Shown here: positions 2,321-10,225 of the stretch, in pieces
Position numbering within the stretch: the first letter of the stretch is position 1
Layout of the letters: every line of letters begins with the position of its first letter
Source: a virus
Strand: one strand, 5' to 3'
UHGV virus genome: UHGV-0253013
DNA: 45,926 nucleotides
Made by a program: the position numbers and the translations under genes
Notes under the pieces: generated by a model
What the model saw: the letters and a program-made list of their open reading frames with translations, nothing else
Told to the model about the DNA's origin: nothing
Databases searched by the model: none

Positions 2321-2512
2321 ATGAAACATGAATATGACCGCAAACCAGCACGCGACATCGTACCTGGCGATATGATTTTCAACGTCAAGACGCGCCAGCC
2401 TGTTGCCGTTGATACGGTGTTCGTAGAGTCGAACGGTAAACTGGTTATCGAAGACGTAACAGGAAACGTTACCGCGTTCGGGCGTAAAGAGCTGGTTCTG
2501 GTGGCCAAATGA
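2321..2512 (+). CDS. hypothetical protein
   Basis: ORF with AGGAATTGAG upstream; stop overlaps the helicase start (ATGA). Confidence 0.4.
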   Translation: MKHEYDRKPARDIVPGDMIFNVKTRQPVAVDTVFVESNGKLVIEDVTGNVTAFGRKELVLVAK

Positions 2513-4974
2513 ATAAATTCACTAGAAGGCCTTATCAAAAGCTCATGACCTCGTTCATGCTGCAACACCCGCGCTGTAATATCTGGGCCAGTATGGGCAG
2601 CGGCAAGTGCCTGAAACGCGGGACTGAAGTTATTATGTTTGACGGTACGACCAAGAAAGTAGAAGACGTCATCGTCGGTGACGTGCTTATGGGGCCGGAT
2701 TCAACGCCTAGAAATGTACTGTCTCTCGGTAGAGGCCGGGAGATGATGTACGAGGTTAAACCGCGAAAAGGAGAGTCGTATACGGTCAACGAAAGCCATA
2801 TATTATCCCTGCGAACTACTACAGGGATCGCAAAAGGTTCATGGCCAGATGATACCGTTTTCGACATAAGCGTCCGCGACTGGCTTAAGTTGCCGAAATA
2901 TGTAACCGGGCCTAATGGGTATCTTAAGGGTTGGCGGGTACCTGTCGATTTTACAAGGAAAGAGCAGGACGAGGCTTTATTGCCTCCGTACCTTATGGGG
3001 TTATGGCTGGGCGACGGTACTTCGTCGTCTGGGGCCATAACATCAGGAGAGAACGAAAAGGAAATAAGGGCGTATCTTGAGTCGTACGCAGCACGTAATG
3101 GGATGCAAATACGAAAAGAAGGACTTACATGGAGTATATCTTACGGCAACACAGGTCATAAGAAGCACGGGTTTACACACGCGCTGAAATCGGCGGGTGT
3201 CCTGAACAATAAGCATATACCGCATAATTACAAATGCGGCGACCGGCGACAGCGTTTAGAATTGCTGGCGGGGCTTCTGGATAGTGATGGTTACTGCGAT
3301 TTGTCTAAAGCAGGTTTTGACTGGATTTCGGTAAGCGAGCGACTCGCTGATGATTTTTGCTATCTATGCCGTTCTCTTGGTTTCGCCGCTTACAAGAAGA
3401 AAACTCGTAAGCGTTGCGCAAACACTGATGTTTGGGGTGACTACTTTAGCGTATCAGTATCGGGCGATTTTTCTGAGGTACCTTTCGTGCGCGGACGCCA
3501 CCAGAATTTACCGAAGCGTAATATTAATAAGAACGTGCTTAACGTTGGGATAGAATCCATAACCCCGGTCGGCGTAGATGACTATTTTGGCTTCACTATC
3601 GACGGTGACAGTCGGTTTTTATTGGGGGACTTCACTGTCACGCACAATACAAGCTCAACGTTGTGGGCTCTCAACAGACTGTTCCGTAATGGGCAACTTA
3701 ATGACGACGACCGAGTGTTAATTCTGGCTCCTTTACGTGTTGCGTCCGGCACGTGGCCCGCGGAACAGGCACGTTGGAACTTCCCGTGTTTGCATGTTGT
3801 AGACGCAACTGGTTCAGAGAAGCGCCGCATCGCGGCGCTGGAGTCAGATGCCAACGTGGTGTGCACGAACTACGAAGTTATTGAGTGGCTGATTGACTAC
3901 TACGGCAAAGACGACTGGCCTTTTACGGTTATCGTTGCCGATGAAAGCACGAAGCTCAAATCATTCCGTAGCCGTTCCGGCGGCAGCAAGCGTGCAAAGG
4001 CGCTTAGCAAAGTGGCGTTCGGTAAGGTTAAGCGTTTCATCAACCTTACCGGTACGCCGTCGCCGAACGGCCTCAAAGACTTGTGGGGGCAGAACTGGTT
4101 TATCGACGGCGGAGAGCGCCTGGGGTCATCGTACACCGCATTCACAGACCGCTGGTTTAACTCGGTACAGAAAGGCAAATCAGCGATGGCACGTGAATAT
4201 CACGCACGCCCGGGCGCAGATAACGAGATTCACCAGAAGATGAAGGACATTAGTCTCACGATTGACGCCGCCGAGTGGTTTGGGTGTGAAGCGCCGATTA
4301 TCGTACCGGTCGAAATCGACCTGCCGAAGAAAGCGCGGCAGGCGTACATCGATATGGAGGAGAAGCTATTCGCGGAACTGGAGAGCGGAGAAGTTGAAGC
4401 GGCTAACGCCGCGGCGAAGACCTCAAAGTGCTTGCAGATTGCTTCCGGTGCCGTATATGTATCGGGGCCGGACGGCGAAGCAACGAAAGACTGGGAGAAA
4501 GTGCACGACACGAAACTTGATGCGCTCGAGTCGATTGTTGAGGAGTTACAGGGTGCGCCGTTACTGGTAGCCTATCAGTTCAAGCATGAACTGGAGCGCA
4601 TCCTTAAGCGATTCCCGCAAGCACAGGCATTTGCCAAAGGTGCTAAGGGTAATAAGCAGATGGAAGCGTGGAACCGTAGGGAGATACCTATGCTCCTGAT
4701 ACACCCAGCCTCCGCAGGCCACGGACTGTCGCTACAACACGGCGGACACCACATGGCCTTTATGAGTCAGGGGTGGAACCTGGAACATTATCTGCAGGTT
4801 ATCGAGCGTATAGGCCCAGTAAGGCAGATGCAATCCGGATACAAACGGTCTGTATTCATTTATCAAATAATAGCACGAGATACTCTTGATGAAGTTGTCG
4901 CCTCTCGTACAGACGAGAAAAGGTCTGTACAGGACGAACTACTTAATTATATGAAGCGCAGAGGTAAGAAATGA
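2509..4974 (+). CDS. SNF2/DEAD-like helicase, intein-containing
   Basis: Walker A MGSGK|...|TSS is split by the insert; downstream VIVADEST (DExx-like) and INLTGTPSPNGL (motif III-like). Confidence 0.8.
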   Translation: MNKFTRRPYQKLMTSFMLQHPRCNIWASMGSGKCLKRGTEVIMFDGTTKKVEDVIVGDVLMGPDSTPRNVLSLGRGREMMYEVKPRKGESYTVNESHILSLRTTTGIAKGSWPDDTVFDISVRDWLKLPKYVTGPNGYLKGWRVPVDFTRKEQDEALLPPYLMGLWLGDGTSSSGAITSGENEKEIRAYLESYAARNGMQIRKEGLTWSISYGNTGHKKHGFTHALKSAGVLNNKHIPHNYKCGDRRQRLELLAGLLDSDGYCDLSKAGFDWISVSERLADDFCYLCRSLGFAAYKKKTRKRCANTDVWGDYFSVSVSGDFSEVPFVRGRHQNLPKRNINKNVLNVGIESITPVGVDDYFGFTIDGDSRFLLGDFTVTHNTSSTLWALNRLFRNGQLNDDDRVLILAPLRVASGTWPAEQARWNFPCLHVVDATGSEKRRIAALESDANVVCTNYEVIEWLIDYYGKDDWPFTVIVADESTKLKSFRSRSGGSKRAKALSKVAFGKVKRFINLTGTPSPNGLKDLWGQNWFIDGGERLGSSYTAFTDRWFNSVQKGKSAMAREYHARPGADNEIHQKMKDISLTIDAAEWFGCEAPIIVPVEIDLPKKARQAYIDMEEKLFAELESGEVEAANAAAKTSKCLQIASGAVYVSGPDGEATKDWEKVHDTKLDALESIVEELQGAPLLVAYQFKHELERILKRFPQAQAFAKGAKGNKQMEAWNRREIPMLLIHPASAGHGLSLQHGGHHMAFMSQGWNLEHYLQVIERIGPVRQMQSGYKRSVFIYQIIARDTLDEVVASRTDEKRSVQDELLNYMKRRGKK
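2608..3648 (+). mobile_element. intein (347 aa) with LAGLIDADG homing endonuclease domain, inserted in the helicase P-loop
   Basis: Starts with Cys directly after GSGK; ends ...VTHN followed by Thr (+1 nucleophile). Block B-like NESHILSL. Two LAGLIDADG motifs: LMGLWLGDG and LAGLLDSDG. Excision restores GSGKTSS. Confidence 0.8.
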
Positions 4975-5156
4975 AACTTAATGTTGGCGATGAAATATAC
5001 AGCGTACATTCATTCAATACTTTCACCATCGAGTACATATCAAAAGACGGCAACAGCTTTGTTTTGGTAAGCACGGACGGTAAATACGAAAAGTCGCGAT
5101 GCTACACGCTGCCGGATATAAAGCGCAGTTTCAAGAAAAGTGAAGGTAAGAAATGA
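4971..5156 (+). CDS. hypothetical protein
   Basis: ORF overlapping the helicase stop (ATGA); no recognisable motif. Confidence 0.4.
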   Translation: MKLNVGDEIYSVHSFNTFTIEYISKDGNSFVLVSTDGKYEKSRCYTLPDIKRSFKKSEGKK

Positions 5157-5290
5157 ACATCATAGCCCCGATTCCAGCATTGCAAAAACGTATCAAGGAA
5201 CTCGAAGAGGAGGTTCTACGACTACGTCAGCAGAGAGACGCCGCTAATGCGCAACTTGCTTTCATACTGGAGAAGCTATCAGAAGAGTAG
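5153..5290 (+). CDS. small coiled-coil protein (45 aa)
   Basis: ATG at 5153 overlapping the upstream stop; MNIIAPIPALQKRIKELEEEVLRLRQQRD...; below the ORF-track size cut-off. Confidence 0.3.
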   Translation: MNIIAPIPALQKRIKELEEEVLRLRQQRDAANAQLAFILEKLSEE

Positions 5291-5294
5291 AGAA

Positions 5295-5320
5295 AAGGCC
5301 CCGTTTGGGGCCTTGTTTAT
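5295..5320. terminator. bidirectional rho-independent terminator between convergent genes
   Basis: AAGGCCCC-GTTT-GGGGCCTT hairpin followed by TTGTTTATTT; sits between the rightward early genes and the leftward tailspike gene. Confidence 0.6.
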
Positions 5321-7657
5321 TTAACTGTTTGTCAGGGTAGCCACTAATGTCTCAAGCGCTATAATCCTTTTCTCTAACTGAGCTGCTTTACGTCGCTGTA
5401 ACGCAGCCTCTAATATCAATACCTCATCATAACGAATACCATACCGCTCCCCTGCCGCCGTAGCTTTTGTTAATACTTCCCCAGATTCCTCATCAATAAT
5501 TTCCGGAGACGCTTCCCACTTATCGTAGCACAGGAAACCGTACTTAGTCGCGTCCAACCCGTGCCGGGTAAACGCCTCAATTGCTCGTTGGGCTACTACT
5601 CCAAAGTGCCACCTAGCTGCATCCTCCCCCTTCTCTGCAACCCTATCCAGGTACTTATATTGAACTAAATTAACTTCAGCCCAAGCGTCTAACATAGCGT
5701 CAGTTAATTCCAGGGGTAGTGTCTTGGTTCTCTCGTCAGACGTAACCGTAAACGCTGTTTGAGTGAATCCGCCGGACAAAGCGCGACTTGCCGACCCGAT
5801 AGCGACGGTGTTTGCACTGGATGGTGTAATAGCCGTCGGGGCTATTTGAATATGCGCCGATGCGTCAGAGGCTAAGCGTAAATTACCCCCAACCAGAGAA
5901 ATAGTTCGAAAAGTACCATCAGATGTGAGTAATTTTATCTGAGAGGTCGTACCTCCACCAATAGCCAAAGATGTAGCCTCATCGGAAATTAGTCTGAATT
6001 TATCAGCTGACACAAAAGGCAATGCAGAAGTATCTATATACTTAGTGAACCACTCAAACCTACCGGACATGGACCCTATGTATTGTCCTATAGCGGGGGC
6101 GTGTACCACGTTACTGGTGGTAGTACCATCAATGCTAGAGGCCCCGGTTATAGTAGATAGTGAACTAAGAAGACTGTTCTTGGGTCCAGGGTGCTTTACT
6201 TCCACAAAGTTACGGGTAGTCCCTGTCTCTAGTGTAACAACCCCGGAAGCACTATACATAGGGAAAACCGATGCGTAGTTATTACTAGCTCCGTCTAAAA
6301 ACCTAATAGAAGTCGCGGTTTGCGTTTGCCCTAAACTATTAGTTCCGCTGCACCCAACCATTAGAATATTATCAGCGGCATTATAGTTGCCTTGTAATGT
6401 AACGCCGTGTGCTTGCGTGGCCTCGGAGGAGGAGTAATCAGCTAAAACATTTGTCACCAGATTACCTGAACCCTTGCCGGTGACCACAGCGGCATACTTA
6501 GCGTTATTAGCAACAACATTACTGATAATATTACTGCTAGGGGCATTGGTCGTCTTGGTGCCATTATAAACAACGTGCTGACAGCTTTGCCCAATGACGC
6601 CACTAACAACATTACATTTAGCATCTGTTTTCAACTCAACCGCCCCGAATTGGGGGTAGTTTCGGGCGATAACATCGTTGATTATAGTATTACTTGCGGA
6701 CTCAAACAGCACGCACCCCGCTGTTTTATTTGTAGCATACCCGGAGTAGTCGCCCCGTATGCCGCTTACAATGTATCCAGACGGACCCCCATCACTAGGG
6801 TATGCCATTAAACTAAATCCAGTTCCCTTTGCATTTTTAAAATCAATACCTTTAATAGTAACGTCCTGCCCACCGGCGAAGGAAACCTGCTGACCCTGTG
6901 TGGAGTCCGTTGCCTTATTTCCTACAATACTCAGGGTGCTAAGTAGCCCTCCTGCAGGTTTATCAAAGATTAAGTGGTTTCCAGAATCGTTTGATTGTTT
7001 TAAAACCCCACCCCCTGTTCCGAATAGAGAGCATGTCGGGTGGGAGAGTAGCGACGTACTATACTCCCCTTGCGGTACAAGCACCCCGTTACTAGCTGTA
7101 AGCGCTCGGTTAAGGGCGTTTGTGTAATCAGGGTCAGTACCTAAATAGAAGTCCAGAACGGAAACTACTTCTCTATTTTTATCGTGTTGCGTCCTGCCGA
7201 CAGCGTCGGTAAATGGTTGTCGGACGCCGACCATGGCATCACCTAATGTCGCATTGTCTGTGCTGGATAAATCATTGCGCAAATCCGGGTCAGTCTGCGG
7301 CTTCCAGTTAGCGCTACCAACCGGGTTAAACGATGCGGGGACAACAACCGGCAGAGTCCCGGTATACGAGTACCACGTCTTGCTTACAGGGTCATACACC
7401 ACTTTGTCGCGGTCATTAGCGGTTAACGTACCACCAGTGGAAAAGTCCCATGACACCGGAGAAAAACCAGCGTCACGCAACACGGCTGGTAACGTCTTTT
7501 GGGTCTGTCCAGTAACCTGATTTGTCGCGTAATCGATATCAGCGCCACCAGCAACACCGCCGGATTTGCCGGTGATAACCTCGGCTTCGAAAATCTGGTG
7601 TTTCTTGGCGGTCTGTAAATCCACCAGGCTTAAAACGTCACCGCATCCGCTTGACAT
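5321..7657 (-). CDS. tailspike / tail fibre with beta-helix body and C-terminal intramolecular chaperone (peptidase S74-like) domain
   Basis: 778 aa; Gly/Asn/Thr/Ser-rich repetitive middle; C-terminal region has an SDERTK (Ser...Lys dyad) motif and a terminal coiled coil; last gene of the tail module. Confidence 0.75.
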   Translation of the reverse strand: MSSGCGDVLSLVDLQTAKKHQIFEAEVITGKSGGVAGGADIDYATNQVTGQTQKTLPAVLRDAGFSPVSWDFSTGGTLTANDRDKVVYDPVSKTWYSYTGTLPVVVPASFNPVGSANWKPQTDPDLRNDLSSTDNATLGDAMVGVRQPFTDAVGRTQHDKNREVVSVLDFYLGTDPDYTNALNRALTASNGVLVPQGEYSTSLLSHPTCSLFGTGGGVLKQSNDSGNHLIFDKPAGGLLSTLSIVGNKATDSTQGQQVSFAGGQDVTIKGIDFKNAKGTGFSLMAYPSDGGPSGYIVSGIRGDYSGYATNKTAGCVLFESASNTIINDVIARNYPQFGAVELKTDAKCNVVSGVIGQSCQHVVYNGTKTTNAPSSNIISNVVANNAKYAAVVTGKGSGNLVTNVLADYSSSEATQAHGVTLQGNYNAADNILMVGCSGTNSLGQTQTATSIRFLDGASNNYASVFPMYSASGVVTLETGTTRNFVEVKHPGPKNSLLSSLSTITGASSIDGTTTSNVVHAPAIGQYIGSMSGRFEWFTKYIDTSALPFVSADKFRLISDEATSLAIGGGTTSQIKLLTSDGTFRTISLVGGNLRLASDASAHIQIAPTAITPSSANTVAIGSASRALSGGFTQTAFTVTSDERTKTLPLELTDAMLDAWAEVNLVQYKYLDRVAEKGEDAARWHFGVVAQRAIEAFTRHGLDATKYGFLCYDKWEASPEIIDEESGEVLTKATAAGERYGIRYDEVLILEAALQRRKAAQLEKRIIALETLVATLTNS

Positions 7658-7669
7658 ATAGAGTCCTCT

Positions 7670-10225
7670 TTAATTAAAACCATTGCTGAATCCGTCGGAG
7701 AAACCGCTGCCGTATGGCGCGACGCCGTCGTATTTATAGAATCCGTCGTCATAGTTGTAGCCAGTAATCTTGACCGTGCGGTCGTCGCCGGGGTCGATTG
7801 AAGAAACAACTATCTTCTGAGCATTATGCCTTGCTTCGTTGCCGAATGAAAACTCAGTTTTCAGCGCACTATTCCCTGTGTAGATTGCTTCCTCCGGCGC
7901 GGAGAGCATAATCACCTCGCGGTCGTGGCTTCCTTTGATGACAGAGATACTCTGCACCGAGCCGTCGCGCTTCTTGAGGATGATTGAGTGGTCGTCACCG
8001 GGGGTGAACGTAACCGGCTGCGACAGAGTTAGCGTAAGCCCATTAACGGCAACAACATAGCCGTCCTGTGGCGCGATACGTGAGCCTTTAACCACGCTGA
8101 TAACCCCGCCGGGGGTAGCGAGAGCACCTTCCTCGGTAGCTTCGAACTCAACGACAACTTTGCTTAACGCGTTGCGCTGGTAGCGACGCCATGCCAGCCA
8201 GTACGCCTGCTGATAATTGCGCACACCCTTAGATTCGTATTCCTCAGTGTTTGCGCCGAGTTCTTCCGGGATATAAATCGTTTCCGGTACGTTTGTATCT
8301 GGGTCAATGTACGAGAATGACAGGCTATCGTAGGTTGTAGAATCGTTGAACGTGCGTGTCCATTTCTCTGTACCGGTAGTTTTGCTGCGGTGGGTGAACA
8401 CCATTTCAGGCCCTGCAACCGGACGGTCGAAACGCAGCATAATGTCTGCACCTTTACGGTACGCAGTACAAAACACGGCTTCCGCTATGGTCTGAACGAT
8501 GTCCTGCATCGTGGTGTCGTAGTCGTCGAATGTGAAGCAGAACTGACCTGCTAATTCACTGCCGAAATATGACTCAATTTCATCCTGCACAGCGAGTAAC
8601 TTATCCATATTTGCCGTTGTCAGTTGCAGGTTACCTACTGCGGGGTCACGCGCCAGTCGGATTAGTGACTGCACAGCCTGAGTATTTGGCGACATTACTG
8701 TATCGAATACCCCATTTCCGAGGTATTTGTAACACATCTCAGTCGCAATCATGCGCAGTTCAGGGTTGTCAATACTAGCGGCCCGCGGTGTCTGTTTACG
8801 GGCACAATGTACGGTGGTTCTGTTGCCGTAATGTGGGGTAGTGTCCAGAGACTGCCCGTACAGGTTGATGAATGTTATCTCGTCGCTTACTGTGCCGTCG
8901 TAGTCCTTATCGAAATTCGTTACGCGGCGCATACGGGCGCGGAAACGGGACGCGGTCGGCAGTTGACCGTAGATAGACGTGCCGACGTAGTCCGTGTTGT
9001 TTCCTGTAATCGTCGCCCGTACCGTGTAAATATCGCTCAACGGGTTGCGCTGAGAGTCAATCATCTGGTACTGGAGTTCTACCGTTACGCTGGTGCGATT
9101 ATAGCCGCCGTCGTATTTGTAGAGGCCGTTCTGCCCCGCGACGTTAGCTAATACACGGTCAACTTCTCCGCGCACCATGTAATACCAGTCGGTCAGGGAT
9201 ACGTCATAGGTGTTGCTCGGGCCAATAAACGTATCTGAACGCTCCGTAAGTGCGTAAGTCTCTCCGTTATTAAGGTTGCCCCAGTTACCTATATTCCCGA
9301 CGTACAACCGAACCTCGAAGTCGTCGACATATAAAACCTCAAATGAGCCGTTCAGGTTAGTGACGTCCTTAACGTCAAAATTGCTCAGCACTGCGACGTC
9401 ACCAACACTAAGAAACTCAGAAAAAGCAGAGCCACCCGACGGGTCGTAGAGGTAGCCGGTGGTTGAAATACGTTTGGCGGTACCACCGGCGCTTGGGTTA
9501 GCCCCAATATCGTTTGGTGCTTTGAGTACAATACCGTCAACGTCGTCGTTGGAGTATGTTACATAGAGTTTCTGATCAATGACGTCGCCGATTTGTAGCT
9601 GCGGCGATGTGGTGTTGTTCGGTGACGTATACGGCGCATACACGGCAACAGAGGAGCCAGTGATGTCGCTTATCAGGGTGTCGCCCTCTGTTACGCCATC
9701 CGCCTCGATATGTAGATGCCCGCGCCCCGCGTCATAGTACGAATACTCCAGCAAAGCACCAGTGGAGTTGAACGCCTTATACGTCTGCATCAGGTCATTA
9801 GGGATTGTCTGCACAGTCCCGCAGATGTCATAGGAGCGCTCGTAAGGGCGTGGTTTGTTTGAGCGGTCTGTGAGGCTGTTATTTGGTGATGTTGTCTGGT
9901 TGTTAGTCGCCGTATAGTTGGCGTTTGCGGACATGTTCAGGCCAAACAACTTAGCGATTGGCTTAAGGATAAAACCAAATACCTTACTAACCGCACCGAG
10001 CGCCCCGCTACCCGCACTCTCAATAATGTGGTACACAGCGTCTTTGTCTTTAAGCGCGTCGAAGTCGTCCGTTACATCTGTATCGTCACCAATCTCGCCG
10101 AGGTAGACGCGTACAGGTGTGCCGTCAGGAATACGGTTAACGACAAACTCCATCGGCATCCCGACGTGTTTTGTACGGTCGAAAGCGCCCTCAGCGTTTC
10201 GCGTGTAGTGCAGGATTATCGCCAA
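7670..10225 (-). CDS. central tail fibre / tip attachment protein (lambda J-like)
   Basis: 851 aa ORF immediately downstream of a K-like gene in the distal tail module; call by size and synteny only. Confidence 0.55.
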   Translation of the reverse strand: MAIILHYTRNAEGAFDRTKHVGMPMEFVVNRIPDGTPVRVYLGEIGDDTDVTDDFDALKDKDAVYHIIESAGSGALGAVSKVFGFILKPIAKLFGLNMSANANYTATNNQTTSPNNSLTDRSNKPRPYERSYDICGTVQTIPNDLMQTYKAFNSTGALLEYSYYDAGRGHLHIEADGVTEGDTLISDITGSSVAVYAPYTSPNNTTSPQLQIGDVIDQKLYVTYSNDDVDGIVLKAPNDIGANPSAGGTAKRISTTGYLYDPSGGSAFSEFLSVGDVAVLSNFDVKDVTNLNGSFEVLYVDDFEVRLYVGNIGNWGNLNNGETYALTERSDTFIGPSNTYDVSLTDWYYMVRGEVDRVLANVAGQNGLYKYDGGYNRTSVTVELQYQMIDSQRNPLSDIYTVRATITGNNTDYVGTSIYGQLPTASRFRARMRRVTNFDKDYDGTVSDEITFINLYGQSLDTTPHYGNRTTVHCARKQTPRAASIDNPELRMIATEMCYKYLGNGVFDTVMSPNTQAVQSLIRLARDPAVGNLQLTTANMDKLLAVQDEIESYFGSELAGQFCFTFDDYDTTMQDIVQTIAEAVFCTAYRKGADIMLRFDRPVAGPEMVFTHRSKTTGTEKWTRTFNDSTTYDSLSFSYIDPDTNVPETIYIPEELGANTEEYESKGVRNYQQAYWLAWRRYQRNALSKVVVEFEATEEGALATPGGVISVVKGSRIAPQDGYVVAVNGLTLTLSQPVTFTPGDDHSIILKKRDGSVQSISVIKGSHDREVIMLSAPEEAIYTGNSALKTEFSFGNEARHNAQKIVVSSIDPGDDRTVKITGYNYDDGFYKYDGVAPYGSGFSDGFSNGFN

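What the first reader, a model, noticed from the sequence alone, without database searches (positions are those of the whole stretch)
5324..5734. Tailspike carries a C-terminal self-cleaving chaperone domain with an S-x4-K dyad
The last about 137 residues begin SDERTK (Ser and Lys five residues apart, as in the catalytic dyad of intramolecular chaperone domains of endosialidase-type spikes) and end in a coiled coil. The mature spike would then lack this domain. The central domain is a Gly/Asn/Thr-rich probable beta-helix of unknown glycan specificity.
Basis: partly seen in the sequence, partly recalled or inferred. Interest (0 to 1): 0.4.

Follow-up and report, generated by a model that had tools for sequence, protein, structure and literature searches.

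The report
K5-lyase tailspike with self-cleaving chaperone domain
The end of this phage tailspike gene does encode the well-known self-cleaving folding-helper domain, and the spike is a relative of the known enzymes that cut the E. coli K5 capsule, so the finding is right but ordinary.

Summary
The 778-aa tailspike ORF (5321..7657, minus strand) contains SDERTK once, at residues 640-645. The C-terminal domain is therefore 139 aa (5324..5740), which is 6 nt longer than the coordinates given.

- Pfam Peptidase_S74 matches from S640 exactly (E 9.8e-14, 51.8 bits against a cut-off of 22).
- The solved chaperone domains of phage GA-1 gp12 and endosialidase F match by sequence (E about 1e-25 and 1e-22).
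- An AlphaFold model superposes on GA-1 (TM 0.89, 1.9 A).
- S640 and K645 are invariant in 22 diverse homologues and align with endoNF S911 and K916.
- Residues 743-777 form one long amphipathic helix.

The motif alone means nothing: 3.2 S-x4-K are expected by composition and 2 are seen.

"Unknown glycan specificity" is not correct. Residues 176-640 are about 60% identical to K5 lyase KflA (PDB 2x3h, E 4e-176) and 64% to an ElmA-like E. coli protein. K5 lyases are one of the four founding families of this chaperone domain.

The window is a Kagunavirus genome. Eleven GenBank records (eight phages) carry the same spike at 97-99% identity, annotated only as "tailspike".

Two points stay open: K5 specificity is inferred, and the stalk arginine that endoNF uses to trigger cleavage has no secure equivalent here.

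The parts
5321..7657 (-). Tailspike gene, 778 codons plus the TAA stop at 5321-5323
   Evidence: ORF list. 97.0-98.7% nucleotide identity over its full length to the annotated 'tailspike' genes of 11 Kagunavirus records, for example fEg-Eco19 Gp52.
7664..7670 (-). Shine-Dalgarno-like AAGAGGA 6 nt upstream of the ATG, overlapping the stop codon of the upstream 851-aa J-like tail protein gene
   Evidence: Read directly from the sequence. The upstream ORF is 7670..10225.
7286..7657 (-). N-terminal virion-anchor module, residues 1-124, shared by Kagunavirus tailspikes
   Evidence: About 200 further phage records match only a short piece at this end of the gene. In the rows listed, window 7215-7287 to 7657 (about the first 124-148 codons) matches at 79-93%. 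Many homologues with the same N-terminus MSSGCGDVLSL carry unrelated central domains. A weak Pfam Tail_spike_N hit falls below its cut-off.
7133..7285 (-). Neck or linker, residues 125-175
   Evidence: Short helices in the model. Local similarity to the neck of the Sf6 tailspike (residues 132-187, E about 1e-8).
6191..7132 (-). Right-handed parallel beta-helix of the K5-lyase family, residues 176-489
   Evidence: PDB 2x3h (K5 lyase KflA) E 3.8e-176 over residues 176-640. The full-length model matches 2x3h with Foldseek E 1.4e-36 and TM 0.77. tblastn gives about 61% identity to K5 lyase of phages K5 and K1-5. PHROG 14895 E 1e-232.
6566..6637 (-). Putative lyase catalytic positions: E341 (6635-6637), K343 (6629-6631) and Y364 (6566-6568)
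   Evidence: These are invariant columns in alignment A1 and map to KflA E206, K208 and Y229. Their catalytic role in KflA is recalled from Thompson et al. 2010, which could not be read here.
5741..6190 (-). C-terminal trimerisation stalk, residues 490-639, an intertwined region that ends in ...GSASRALSGGFTQTAFTVT
   Evidence: Aligns with the C-terminal part of 2x3h up to its last residue. pLDDT is low in the monomer model, as expected for an inter-chain fold. KflA has a triple-stranded beta-helix or prism after its beta-helix.
5723..5740 (-). Cleavage-site motif S640-D-E-R-T-K645 (Ser/Lys dyad)
   Evidence: Aligns with endoNF A911(S911A)...K916 in 3gw6 and with the first residues SDERHK of 3gud. 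S640 and K645 are invariant in 22 homologues.
5324..5740 (-). C-terminal intramolecular chaperone domain (Peptidase S74), residues 640-778, 15.7 kDa
   Evidence: Pfam PF13884 E 9.8e-14 over residues 640-701, covering profile positions 1-58 of 58. 3gud E 4e-26 and 3gw6 E 8e-24. The model has pLDDT 86-97 and superposes on 3gud with TM 0.89 and rmsd 1.9 A. Molecular weight.
5327..5431 (-). C-terminal 35-residue helix, residues 743-777, the presumed trimeric coiled coil
   Evidence: DSSP helix 743-777 in both models. Heptad-spaced leucines. The homologous helices form the trimeric coiled coil in T5 pb1 and MyRF.
5295..5314 (+). GC-rich hairpin AAGGCCCC-GTTT-GGGGCCTT between the converging tailspike gene and the 45-aa ORF 5153..5290; a likely terminator for both directions
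   Evidence: Terminator scan and ORF layout. Use in both directions is inferred.

Best explanation
This is the tailspike of a Kagunavirus, a small siphovirus, built from four modules. (1) A genus-typical N-terminal anchor and neck (residues 1-175). (2) A beta-helix polysaccharide lyase of the K5 (N-acetylheparosan) lyase family (about 176-489). (3) an intertwined trimerisation stalk (490-639). (4) A 139-residue C-terminal intramolecular chaperone domain of the Peptidase S74 family (640-778). Inferred mechanism, by homology: three nascent chains are brought together by the chaperone domains, whose C-terminal helices form a trimeric coiled coil. This templates folding of the intertwined stalk. 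Once the stalk is folded, K645 activates S640 and the chain is cut at S640, most likely between T639 and S640. That releases a 15.7 kDa fragment and leaves a 66 kDa mature subunit (82 kDa precursor) that forms a very stable trimer on the virion. The mature spike then most likely degrades a K5-type capsule by beta-elimination, giving the phage access to the cell surface.
For: Shown here:
- Pfam PF13884 matches at full profile length, starting exactly at S640, 30 bits above its gathering score.
- Sequence matches to solved chaperone domains: GA-1 gp12 3gud (E 4e-26) and endoNF 3gw6 (E 8e-24), plus weaker matches to 6eu4, 7y5s and T5 pb1 4uw8. S640 and K645 align with S911(A) and K916 of endoNF.
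- An AlphaFold model of the domain (pLDDT 86-97) superposes on 3gud at TM 0.89 and 1.9 A, and also retrieves 3gw6, 4uw8 and the MyRF ICA domain 7dc3.
- S640, K645, K676, R682, H684, G686, C710, D712 and R742 are invariant across 22 homologues whose central domains differ.
- The sequence deposited for the KflA crystal structure 2x3h ends exactly at the residue aligned with S640.
- The lyase domain matches 2x3h at E 3.8e-176; identity is 60% to a KflA-like and 64% to an ElmA-like protein, and those two are themselves 60% identical. The fold match to 2x3h is TM 0.77.

From the literature:
- K1-5 K5 lyase is listed as 67 kDa with a 52 kDa mature form, which fits cleavage at the equivalent S505.
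- K5 lyases are one of four phage protein families known to carry this domain. The Ser/Lys dyad is indispensable in endoNF, T5 pb1 and MyRF.
Against: - No experiment on this protein or its 97-99% identical relatives was found. The fEg-Eco19 paper says only 'tail spike protein'.
- The third element of the endoNF and T5 mechanism is a stalk Arg from a neighbouring chain, 14 residues before the Ser (R897, R1250). It has no secure equivalent here. The only nearby Arg, R625, is at -15. It is Leu in a 97%-identical relative and Tyr, Phe, Ala or Asn in other Kagunavirus spikes with the same WSGGFTQTAFT stalk type.
- This clade also has L627 where nearly all homologues have Trp.
- The exact scissile bond is uncertain. 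The Ser leaves with the chaperone in K1F and T5 but was modelled as the last mature residue in phi29, and the 2x3h sequence ends with the Ser.
- K5 specificity rests on 60-64% identity, and no host capsule data were found.
- The models are monomers, so trimer geometry was not tested.
Confidence: 0.85

Rival explanations
1. The S74 chaperone part is as described, but the lyase has drifted to a substrate other than K5 heparosan, such as another glucuronic-acid-containing E. coli or E. fergusonii capsule or O-antigen.
For: Identity to characterised K5 lyases is only 60-64% in the beta-helix, and the protein forms a separate clade of 11 records. Recorded hosts are unspecified clinical E. coli and one E. 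fergusonii, with no capsule typing. Tailspike specificity can change with few substitutions (general knowledge).
Against: The KflA-like and ElmA-like proteins are just as far apart (60%), and KflA and ElmA are both listed as lyases of E. coli K5. The recalled catalytic positions and the QFGAVELK motif are invariant. Phages named PDP21P1, P3, P6 and P8, from Kayfunavirus, Vectrevirus and Kagunavirus, all carry K5-lyase homologues. If the name prefix is the isolation host (an inference from the naming), one strain is attacked through all of these lineages.
Confidence: 0.25
2. The S74-like domain folds and helps trimerisation but is not cleaved off, and stays on the mature spike as a distal knob.
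For: The stalk Arg that triggers cleavage in endoNF and T5 is not securely present: R625 is out of register and is Leu in a close relative. W627 is replaced by Leu.
Against: The Ser/Lys dyad and the other core residues are invariant, which would not be expected without catalysis. KflA has the same RAWSGGF-type stalk (Arg at -15, Ala at -14) and is reported to be processed from 67 to 52 kDa. MyRF cleaves without any stalk Arg.
Confidence: 0.07
3. SDERTK is a chance motif and the C-terminus is just a generic helical tail.
For: S-x4-K is expected 3.2 times in a protein of this composition.
Against: A full-length Pfam match above threshold, E about 1e-25 to solved chaperone domains, TM 0.89 fold agreement, and invariance of the dyad.
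Confidence: 0.01

Closest known systems
K5 lyase KflA of coliphages K5A and K1-5 (gp46), PDB 2x3h
   Same: The beta-helix lyase domain, the intertwined C-terminal stalk and the S74 chaperone domain follow in the same order. S505/K510 of KflA correspond to S640/K645 here. The E-x-K and Tyr positions are conserved. KflA is reported as 67 kDa with a 52 kDa mature form.
   Different: Identity is only about 60% (57% in the chaperone domain). KflA has a very short N-terminus that docks on an adapter protein of an SP6-like podovirus, whereas this spike has a 175-residue Kagunavirus (siphovirus) anchor and neck. L627 replaces the Trp.
ElmA-type K5 lyase of E. coli prophages (820-aa protein P0004; the equation with ElmA rests on length and my recollection)
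   Same: Closest in the beta-helix (64%), and the same stalk motif and dyad. ElmA is listed as a prophage K5 lyase and as a carrier of the chaperone domain.
   Different: The N-terminal part is different and much longer. Its chaperone domain is only 47% identical and has extra insertions.
Endosialidase F (endoNF) chaperone domain, PDB 3gw6
   Same: The same domain family and the same S-x4-K dyad register. The conserved core motif K-G-x-D-A-R-x-H-F-G-V-I-A-Q and a C-terminal helix are present.
   Different: About 30% identity. endoNF has long 'tentacle' insertions that are absent here, and its Arg897 at -14 has no positional equivalent (A626).
Bacillus phage GA-1 neck appendage gp12 chaperone domain, PDB 3gud
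   Same: The best structural match: a compact form of the domain at 46% identity, TM 0.89 and 1.9 A, beginning SDERHK against SDERTK here.
   Different: It is attached to a different enzyme and a different virion site in a Gram-positive podovirus.
Gp52 'tail spike protein' of Escherichia phage fEg-Eco19 and ten further records (eight phages in all), including fFiEco02, fPoEco01, KMB36, EF2-1, VIPECOMC04, VIPECOTPH05A and Kagunavirus PDP21P8
   Same: Essentially the same protein: 18 differences in 778 residues against fEg-Eco19, with the chaperone segment 99.0-99.8% identical at DNA level.
   Different: These are annotated only as tailspike. No lyase or chaperone assignment appears in the fEg-Eco19 paper.
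PDB 9vvr 'Tail spike protein' (843 aa, 18 chains)
   Same: The best PDB sequence match (E 6e-232, residues 94-765), covering neck, lyase, stalk and chaperone domain. 843-aa homologues (e.g. P0007) were found by the protein search and are encoded by Kayfunavirus-type phages; equating the 9vvr chain with them rests on its length.
   Different: It has a T7-type N-terminal tail-attachment domain. I could not determine whether the chaperone domain is present in the deposited model.

Membership tests
Peptidase S74 / C-terminal intramolecular chaperone domain (Pfam PF13884) | Profile match above the curated threshold | tested here: met
   51.8 bits against a cut-off of 22, E 9.8e-14, residues 640-701 covering profile positions 1-58 of 58.
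Peptidase S74 / C-terminal intramolecular chaperone domain (Pfam PF13884) | Located at the extreme C-terminus of a trimeric tailspike or fibre, directly after an intertwined stalk | tested here: met
   The domain is the last 139 residues. The preceding residues 490-639 align with the C-terminal stalk of KflA 2x3h.
Peptidase S74 / C-terminal intramolecular chaperone domain (Pfam PF13884) | Catalytic Ser at the domain boundary, aligned with endoNF S911 and T5 S1264 | tested here: met
   S640 aligns with A911 of the S911A structure 3gw6 and with the first residue of 3gud. It is invariant in 22 homologues.
Peptidase S74 / C-terminal intramolecular chaperone domain (Pfam PF13884) | Lys five residues downstream of the Ser (general base; endoNF K916) | tested here: met
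   K645 aligns with K916 and is invariant in 22 homologues.
Peptidase S74 / C-terminal intramolecular chaperone domain (Pfam PF13884) | Stalk Arg of a neighbouring chain acting as folding sensor and transition-state stabiliser (endoNF R897, T5 R1250, at -14) | tested here: inconclusive
   Position -14 is A626. R625 at -15 is conserved in the KflA-like and ElmA-like proteins but is Leu in the 97%-identical P0001 and Tyr, Phe, Ala or Asn in related stalks. MyRF shows that the Arg is not universal.
Peptidase S74 / C-terminal intramolecular chaperone domain (Pfam PF13884) | Alpha/beta fold ending in a long helix that forms a trimeric coiled coil | tested here: met
   The monomer model superposes on 3gud at TM 0.89, with a helix over residues 743-777. 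Trimer formation itself was not modelled.
Peptidase S74 / C-terminal intramolecular chaperone domain (Pfam PF13884) | Autoproteolytic release after trimer folding, blocked by Ser-to-Ala | not testable with these tools
   Needs expression and mutagenesis. Predicted products are 82 kDa going to 66.2 plus 15.7 kDa.
K5 (N-acetylheparosan) lyase tailspikes (KflA/ElmA) | Homology across the whole beta-helix to a characterised K5 lyase | tested here: met
   2x3h E 3.8e-176. About 61% identity to the annotated K5 lyases of phages K5 (Y10025) and K1-5. Fold TM 0.77.
K5 (N-acetylheparosan) lyase tailspikes (KflA/ElmA) | Conservation of the proposed catalytic residues (KflA E206, K208, Y229; numbering recalled from Thompson et al. 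2010, paper not readable here) | tested here: met
   E341, K343 and Y364 map to exactly those KflA positions and are invariant in alignment A1. The functional role of these residues is from memory.
K5 (N-acetylheparosan) lyase tailspikes (KflA/ElmA) | Beta-eliminative cleavage of K5 polysaccharide, and K5-dependent infection | not testable with these tools
   No host capsule data were found for this clade.
Kagunavirus (Guernseyvirinae) tailspike | Genus-typical N-terminal anchor, and a gene position directly downstream of the J-like tail tip protein | tested here: met
   A short piece at the start of the gene (about the first 124-148 codons in the rows listed) is shared at 79-93% DNA identity with many Kagunavirus records. 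The gene follows the 851-aa J-like protein, as described for the genus.

The most novel reading that the evidence does not exclude
This Kagunavirus clade could be a third, functionally distinct lineage of heparosan-lyase-type spikes. Its substrate might differ from K5. Alternatively, its chaperone domain might fire without the stalk-arginine 'folding sensor': R625 is replaced by Leu in a 97%-identical relative, and Trp627 is replaced by Leu across the clade. That would mean the coupling between stalk folding and self-cleavage works differently from the endoNF/T5 paradigm.
Probability: 0.15. Interest if true: 0.35.

Novelty: new member of a known kind. Interest (0 to 1): 0.15.

Why it matters
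The practical value is annotation. Eleven deposited Kagunavirus genome records (eight phages) label this gene only as "tailspike". It can now be annotated as a K5-lyase-family depolymerase with a self-cleaving S74 chaperone domain, with predicted cleavage at S640.

This helps in three ways:
- It helps predict host range, with K5-capsulated E. coli such as uropathogenic (UPEC) strains and Nissle 1917 as likely hosts.
- It guides design of recombinant depolymerase. The full-length gene should be expressed so that the chaperone domain can do its job, and a 66 kDa product should be expected.
- It adds another example of the same lyase-stalk-chaperone cassette mounted on different anchors: siphovirus, SP6-like, T7-like, N4-like and prophage.

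It does not change what is known about the mechanism.

Tried and rejected
- I tried to read the primary papers on KflA (PMC2911314 and its DOI), Clarke 2000 (PMC94548), Legoux 1996 (PMC178642) and Schwarzer 2009 (PMC2666599). None is held. The KflA catalytic residue numbers and the 820-aa length of ElmA therefore rest on my memory. They are cross-checked only by the fact that the recalled numbers land on invariant columns.
- I looked for capsule types of the hosts of the closest phages (fEg-Eco19, VIPECOMC04, the Guelin/Picard collection preprint, and a UPEC phage paper) and found nothing usable. One literature search on host-strain names returned only unrelated papers.
- I considered whether vB_EcoS-179_3 could be this window. 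I rejected it on genome length: 43,053 against 45,926 bp.
- I considered R625 as the equivalent of endoNF R897. I rejected this as a firm claim because of the one-residue register shift and the R625L variant.
- The monomer AlphaFold models cannot fold the intertwined stalk (pLDDT 28-56 over about residues 490-640). No conclusion about active-site geometry was drawn from them.
Full report
**1. What is at the coordinates.**
The finding lies in the 3' end of a 778-codon ORF on the minus strand (5321..7657).
- The ORF has a Shine-Dalgarno-like AAGAGGA just upstream.
- It follows directly after an 851-aa J-like tail protein gene (7670..10225).
- It is followed by a GC-rich hairpin at 5295-5314, which separates it from a converging small ORF.
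- SDERTK occurs once, at residues 640-645. The Ser codon is at 5738-5740 and the Lys codon at 5723-5725.
- The C-terminal domain is therefore 139 residues (5324..5740).
- The S-x4-K spacing is as described, but it is not informative by itself. 3.2 such motifs are expected from composition and two occur.

**2. Is it an S74 intramolecular chaperone domain?** Yes. Four independent lines agree.
- Profile. Pfam Peptidase_S74 (PF13884) matches residues 640-701 over the whole 58-position profile, starting exactly at S640. The score is 51.8 bits against a gathering score of 22 (E 9.8e-14).
- Sequence. The C-terminal 217 residues match the solved chaperone domains of Bacillus phage GA-1 gp12 (3gud, E 4e-26) and endosialidase F (3gw6, E 8e-24). 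They also match two further tailspike or fibre structures and, more weakly, T5 pb1 (4uw8). In the printed alignment S640 lies opposite A911 of the S911A mutant endoNF, and K645 lies opposite K916. 3gud begins SDERHK.
- Fold. An AlphaFold model of residues 546-778 has pLDDT 86-97 throughout the chaperone part. It superposes on 3gud with TM 0.89 and 1.9 A rmsd over 120 residues. It also retrieves 3gw6, 4uw8 and the human/mouse MyRF ICA domain 7dc3.
- Conservation. In an alignment of 22 homologues, many with unrelated central domains, the invariant residues are S640, K645, K676, A681, R682, H684, G686, A689, C710, D712 and R742.

The ending is a single 35-residue helix (743-777) with leucines at heptad spacing. 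In T5 pb1 and MyRF the equivalent helices form the trimeric coiled coil that drives trimerisation.

**3. What the rest of the protein is.**
It is a beta-helix, but its family is known.
- PDB 2x3h, the K5 lyase KflA of coliphage K5A, matches residues 176-640 with E 3.8e-176. Its deposited sequence ends exactly at the residue aligned with S640.
- The full-length model matches 2x3h with Foldseek E 1.4e-36 and TM 0.77.
- tblastn finds the domain in 67 phage records. Eleven records (eight phages) match at above 95% and all carry the same full-length Kagunavirus spike gene. The others match at about 60%. They include the annotated K5 lyases of phage K5 (Y10025), K1-5, several Vectrevirus and Kayfunavirus phages, and the UE-S5 phages, which a paper assigns to Schitoviridae.
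- In the beta-helix the window protein is 60% identical to a KflA-like protein and 64% to an 820-aa ElmA-like E. coli protein. Those two are themselves 60% identical. The window protein is thus a third lineage, roughly equidistant from two lineages that I take to be the K5 lyases KflA and ElmA. ElmA is listed as an E. coli K5 prophage lyase; equating P0004 with ElmA is my inference.
- The KflA catalytic positions I recall from Thompson et al. 2010 (E206, K208, Y229) map onto E341, K343 and Y364. These are invariant columns within the invariant motif QFGAVELK. The paper itself could not be read here.

**4. Genomic and evolutionary context.**
- The window is a Kagunavirus (Guernseyvirinae) genome. 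The tailspike gene is 97.0-98.7% identical to those of fEg-Eco19, fFiEco02, fPoEco01, KMB36, EF2-1, VIPECOMC04, VIPECOTPH05A and Kagunavirus PDP21P8.
- About 200 other records share only a short piece at the N-terminal end of the gene. In the rows listed it spans about the first 124-148 codons, at 79-93%.
- The protein search shows the same MSSGCGDVLSL anchor joined to many different central domains. About a quarter of these also end in PF13884.
- Conversely, the lyase-stalk-chaperone cassette occurs behind at least five other N-termini: the 632-aa SP6-like form, the 843-aa T7-like form, the 784-aa form of the UE-S5-type (Schitoviridae) phages, a 755-aa form, and the 820-aa prophage form.
- The picture is the usual modular exchange of receptor-binding cassettes.
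- The literature already lists K5 lyases among the four phage protein families that carry this chaperone domain. A review table gives the K1-5 K5 lyase as 67 kDa with a 52 kDa mature form. That is what cleavage at KflA S505, the residue aligned with S640, would give.

**5. Mechanism: what is shown and what is inferred.**
- Shown here: domain identity, register of the dyad, fold, conservation, and family of the catalytic domain.
- Inferred from endoNF, T5 pb1 and MyRF: the chaperone domains trimerise through their C-terminal helices and template the intertwined stalk. Once the stalk is folded, K645 activates S640 and the chain is cut at S640. This releases a 15.7 kDa fragment from an 81.9 kDa precursor and leaves a 66.2 kDa mature subunit.
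- The exact bond is uncertain. In K1F and T5 the Ser leaves with the chaperone, which would mean T639|S640 here. In phi29 the Ser was modelled as the last mature residue, and the 2x3h sequence ends with the Ser.

**6. A caveat worth recording.**
In endoNF and T5 a stalk arginine of a neighbouring chain, 14 residues before the Ser, couples cleavage to correct stalk folding. Here position -14 is A626.
- The nearby R625, at -15, is shared with the KflA-like and ElmA-like proteins. It is Leu in a 97%-identical relative (P0001, a cluster of 130 sequences). It is Tyr, Phe, Ala or Asn in other Kagunavirus spikes with the same ...WSGGFTQTAFT-V/I-TSD stalk type.
- The clade also has Leu627 where nearly all others have Trp.
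- Because KflA has the same stalk type and is reported as processed, and because MyRF cleaves without a stalk Arg, this does not argue strongly against cleavage. It does mean the 'Arg sensor' part of the textbook mechanism cannot be transferred with confidence.

**7. Verdict.**
The 'unknown specificity' statement should be replaced by 'K5-lyase family, K5 specificity probable but untested'.

This is a new member of a well-known kind. Essentially identical genes are already in GenBank, although they are annotated only as tailspike, and the fEg-Eco19 paper says no more than that. Interest is low. The value lies mainly in annotation and in practical use for depolymerase expression and host-range prediction.

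Noticed in passing
window 2608-3648 (+), inside the helicase gene 2509..4974: The SNF2-type helicase carries a 347-residue intein (C34 ... THN|T381) with Hint and LAGLIDADG homing-endonuclease domains. It is inserted in the Walker A motif GSGK|(S/T). fEg-Eco19 has the intein-free 474-aa helicase, with flanks 93-94% identical. The intein DNA is 90-98% identical in 175 phage records, 168 of them Salmonella phages (e.g. SETP3, annotated as an intein-containing helicase) and only 4 Escherichia phages.
   Followed up: yes
window 5295-5314: A perfect 8-bp GC-rich hairpin (AAGGCCCC GTTT GGGGCCTT) sits between the converging tailspike gene and the small + strand ORF 5153..5290. It is a likely terminator for both directions.
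   Followed up: partly
window 5783-5785 (R625) and 5777-5779 (L627): The stalk residue R625 is Leu in a 97%-identical relative (P0001). L627 replaces a Trp that is otherwise nearly invariant in the ...R-A-W-S-G-G-F... motif upstream of the cleavage site. Both positions lie where endoNF and T5 place the Arg that triggers cleavage.
   Followed up: partly
window 5321-5740 compared with 5321-7657: Among the 11 closest phage records the chaperone-domain DNA is 99.0-99.8% identical, whereas the whole gene is 97.0-98.7% identical. The part that is discarded from the mature spike is therefore the most conserved part of the gene.
   Followed up: no
phage records OZ035783 (Kagunavirus PDP21P8), OZ035821 (Kayfunavirus PDP21P1), OZ035769 and OZ035822 (Vectrevirus PDP21P3 and P6): Four phages from three genera share the name prefix PDP21, presumably the isolation host, and all encode K5-lyase-family spikes. 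If the prefix is the host, the Kagunavirus lineage targets the same capsule as classical K5 lyases. No paper describing the host was found.
   Followed up: partly
window 4971-5290 compared with L001 5351-5970 (fEg-Eco19): Between the helicase and the tailspike, fEg-Eco19 has an HNH homing endonuclease gene (486 nt) followed by a 45-codon ORF. The window has a 61-codon ORF with no Pfam match followed by a 45-codon ORF. This is a second difference in mobile-element content between the two genomes, opposite in direction to the intein.
   Followed up: no
window 7133-7285 (residues 125-175): The neck between anchor and beta-helix has local sequence similarity (E about 1e-8) to the neck of the Sf6 tailspike (PDB 2vbe, 4urr, 7sg7). 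The usual DFGAxGDG cap motif at the start of the beta-helix is degenerate here (LDFYLGTDPD).
   Followed up: no
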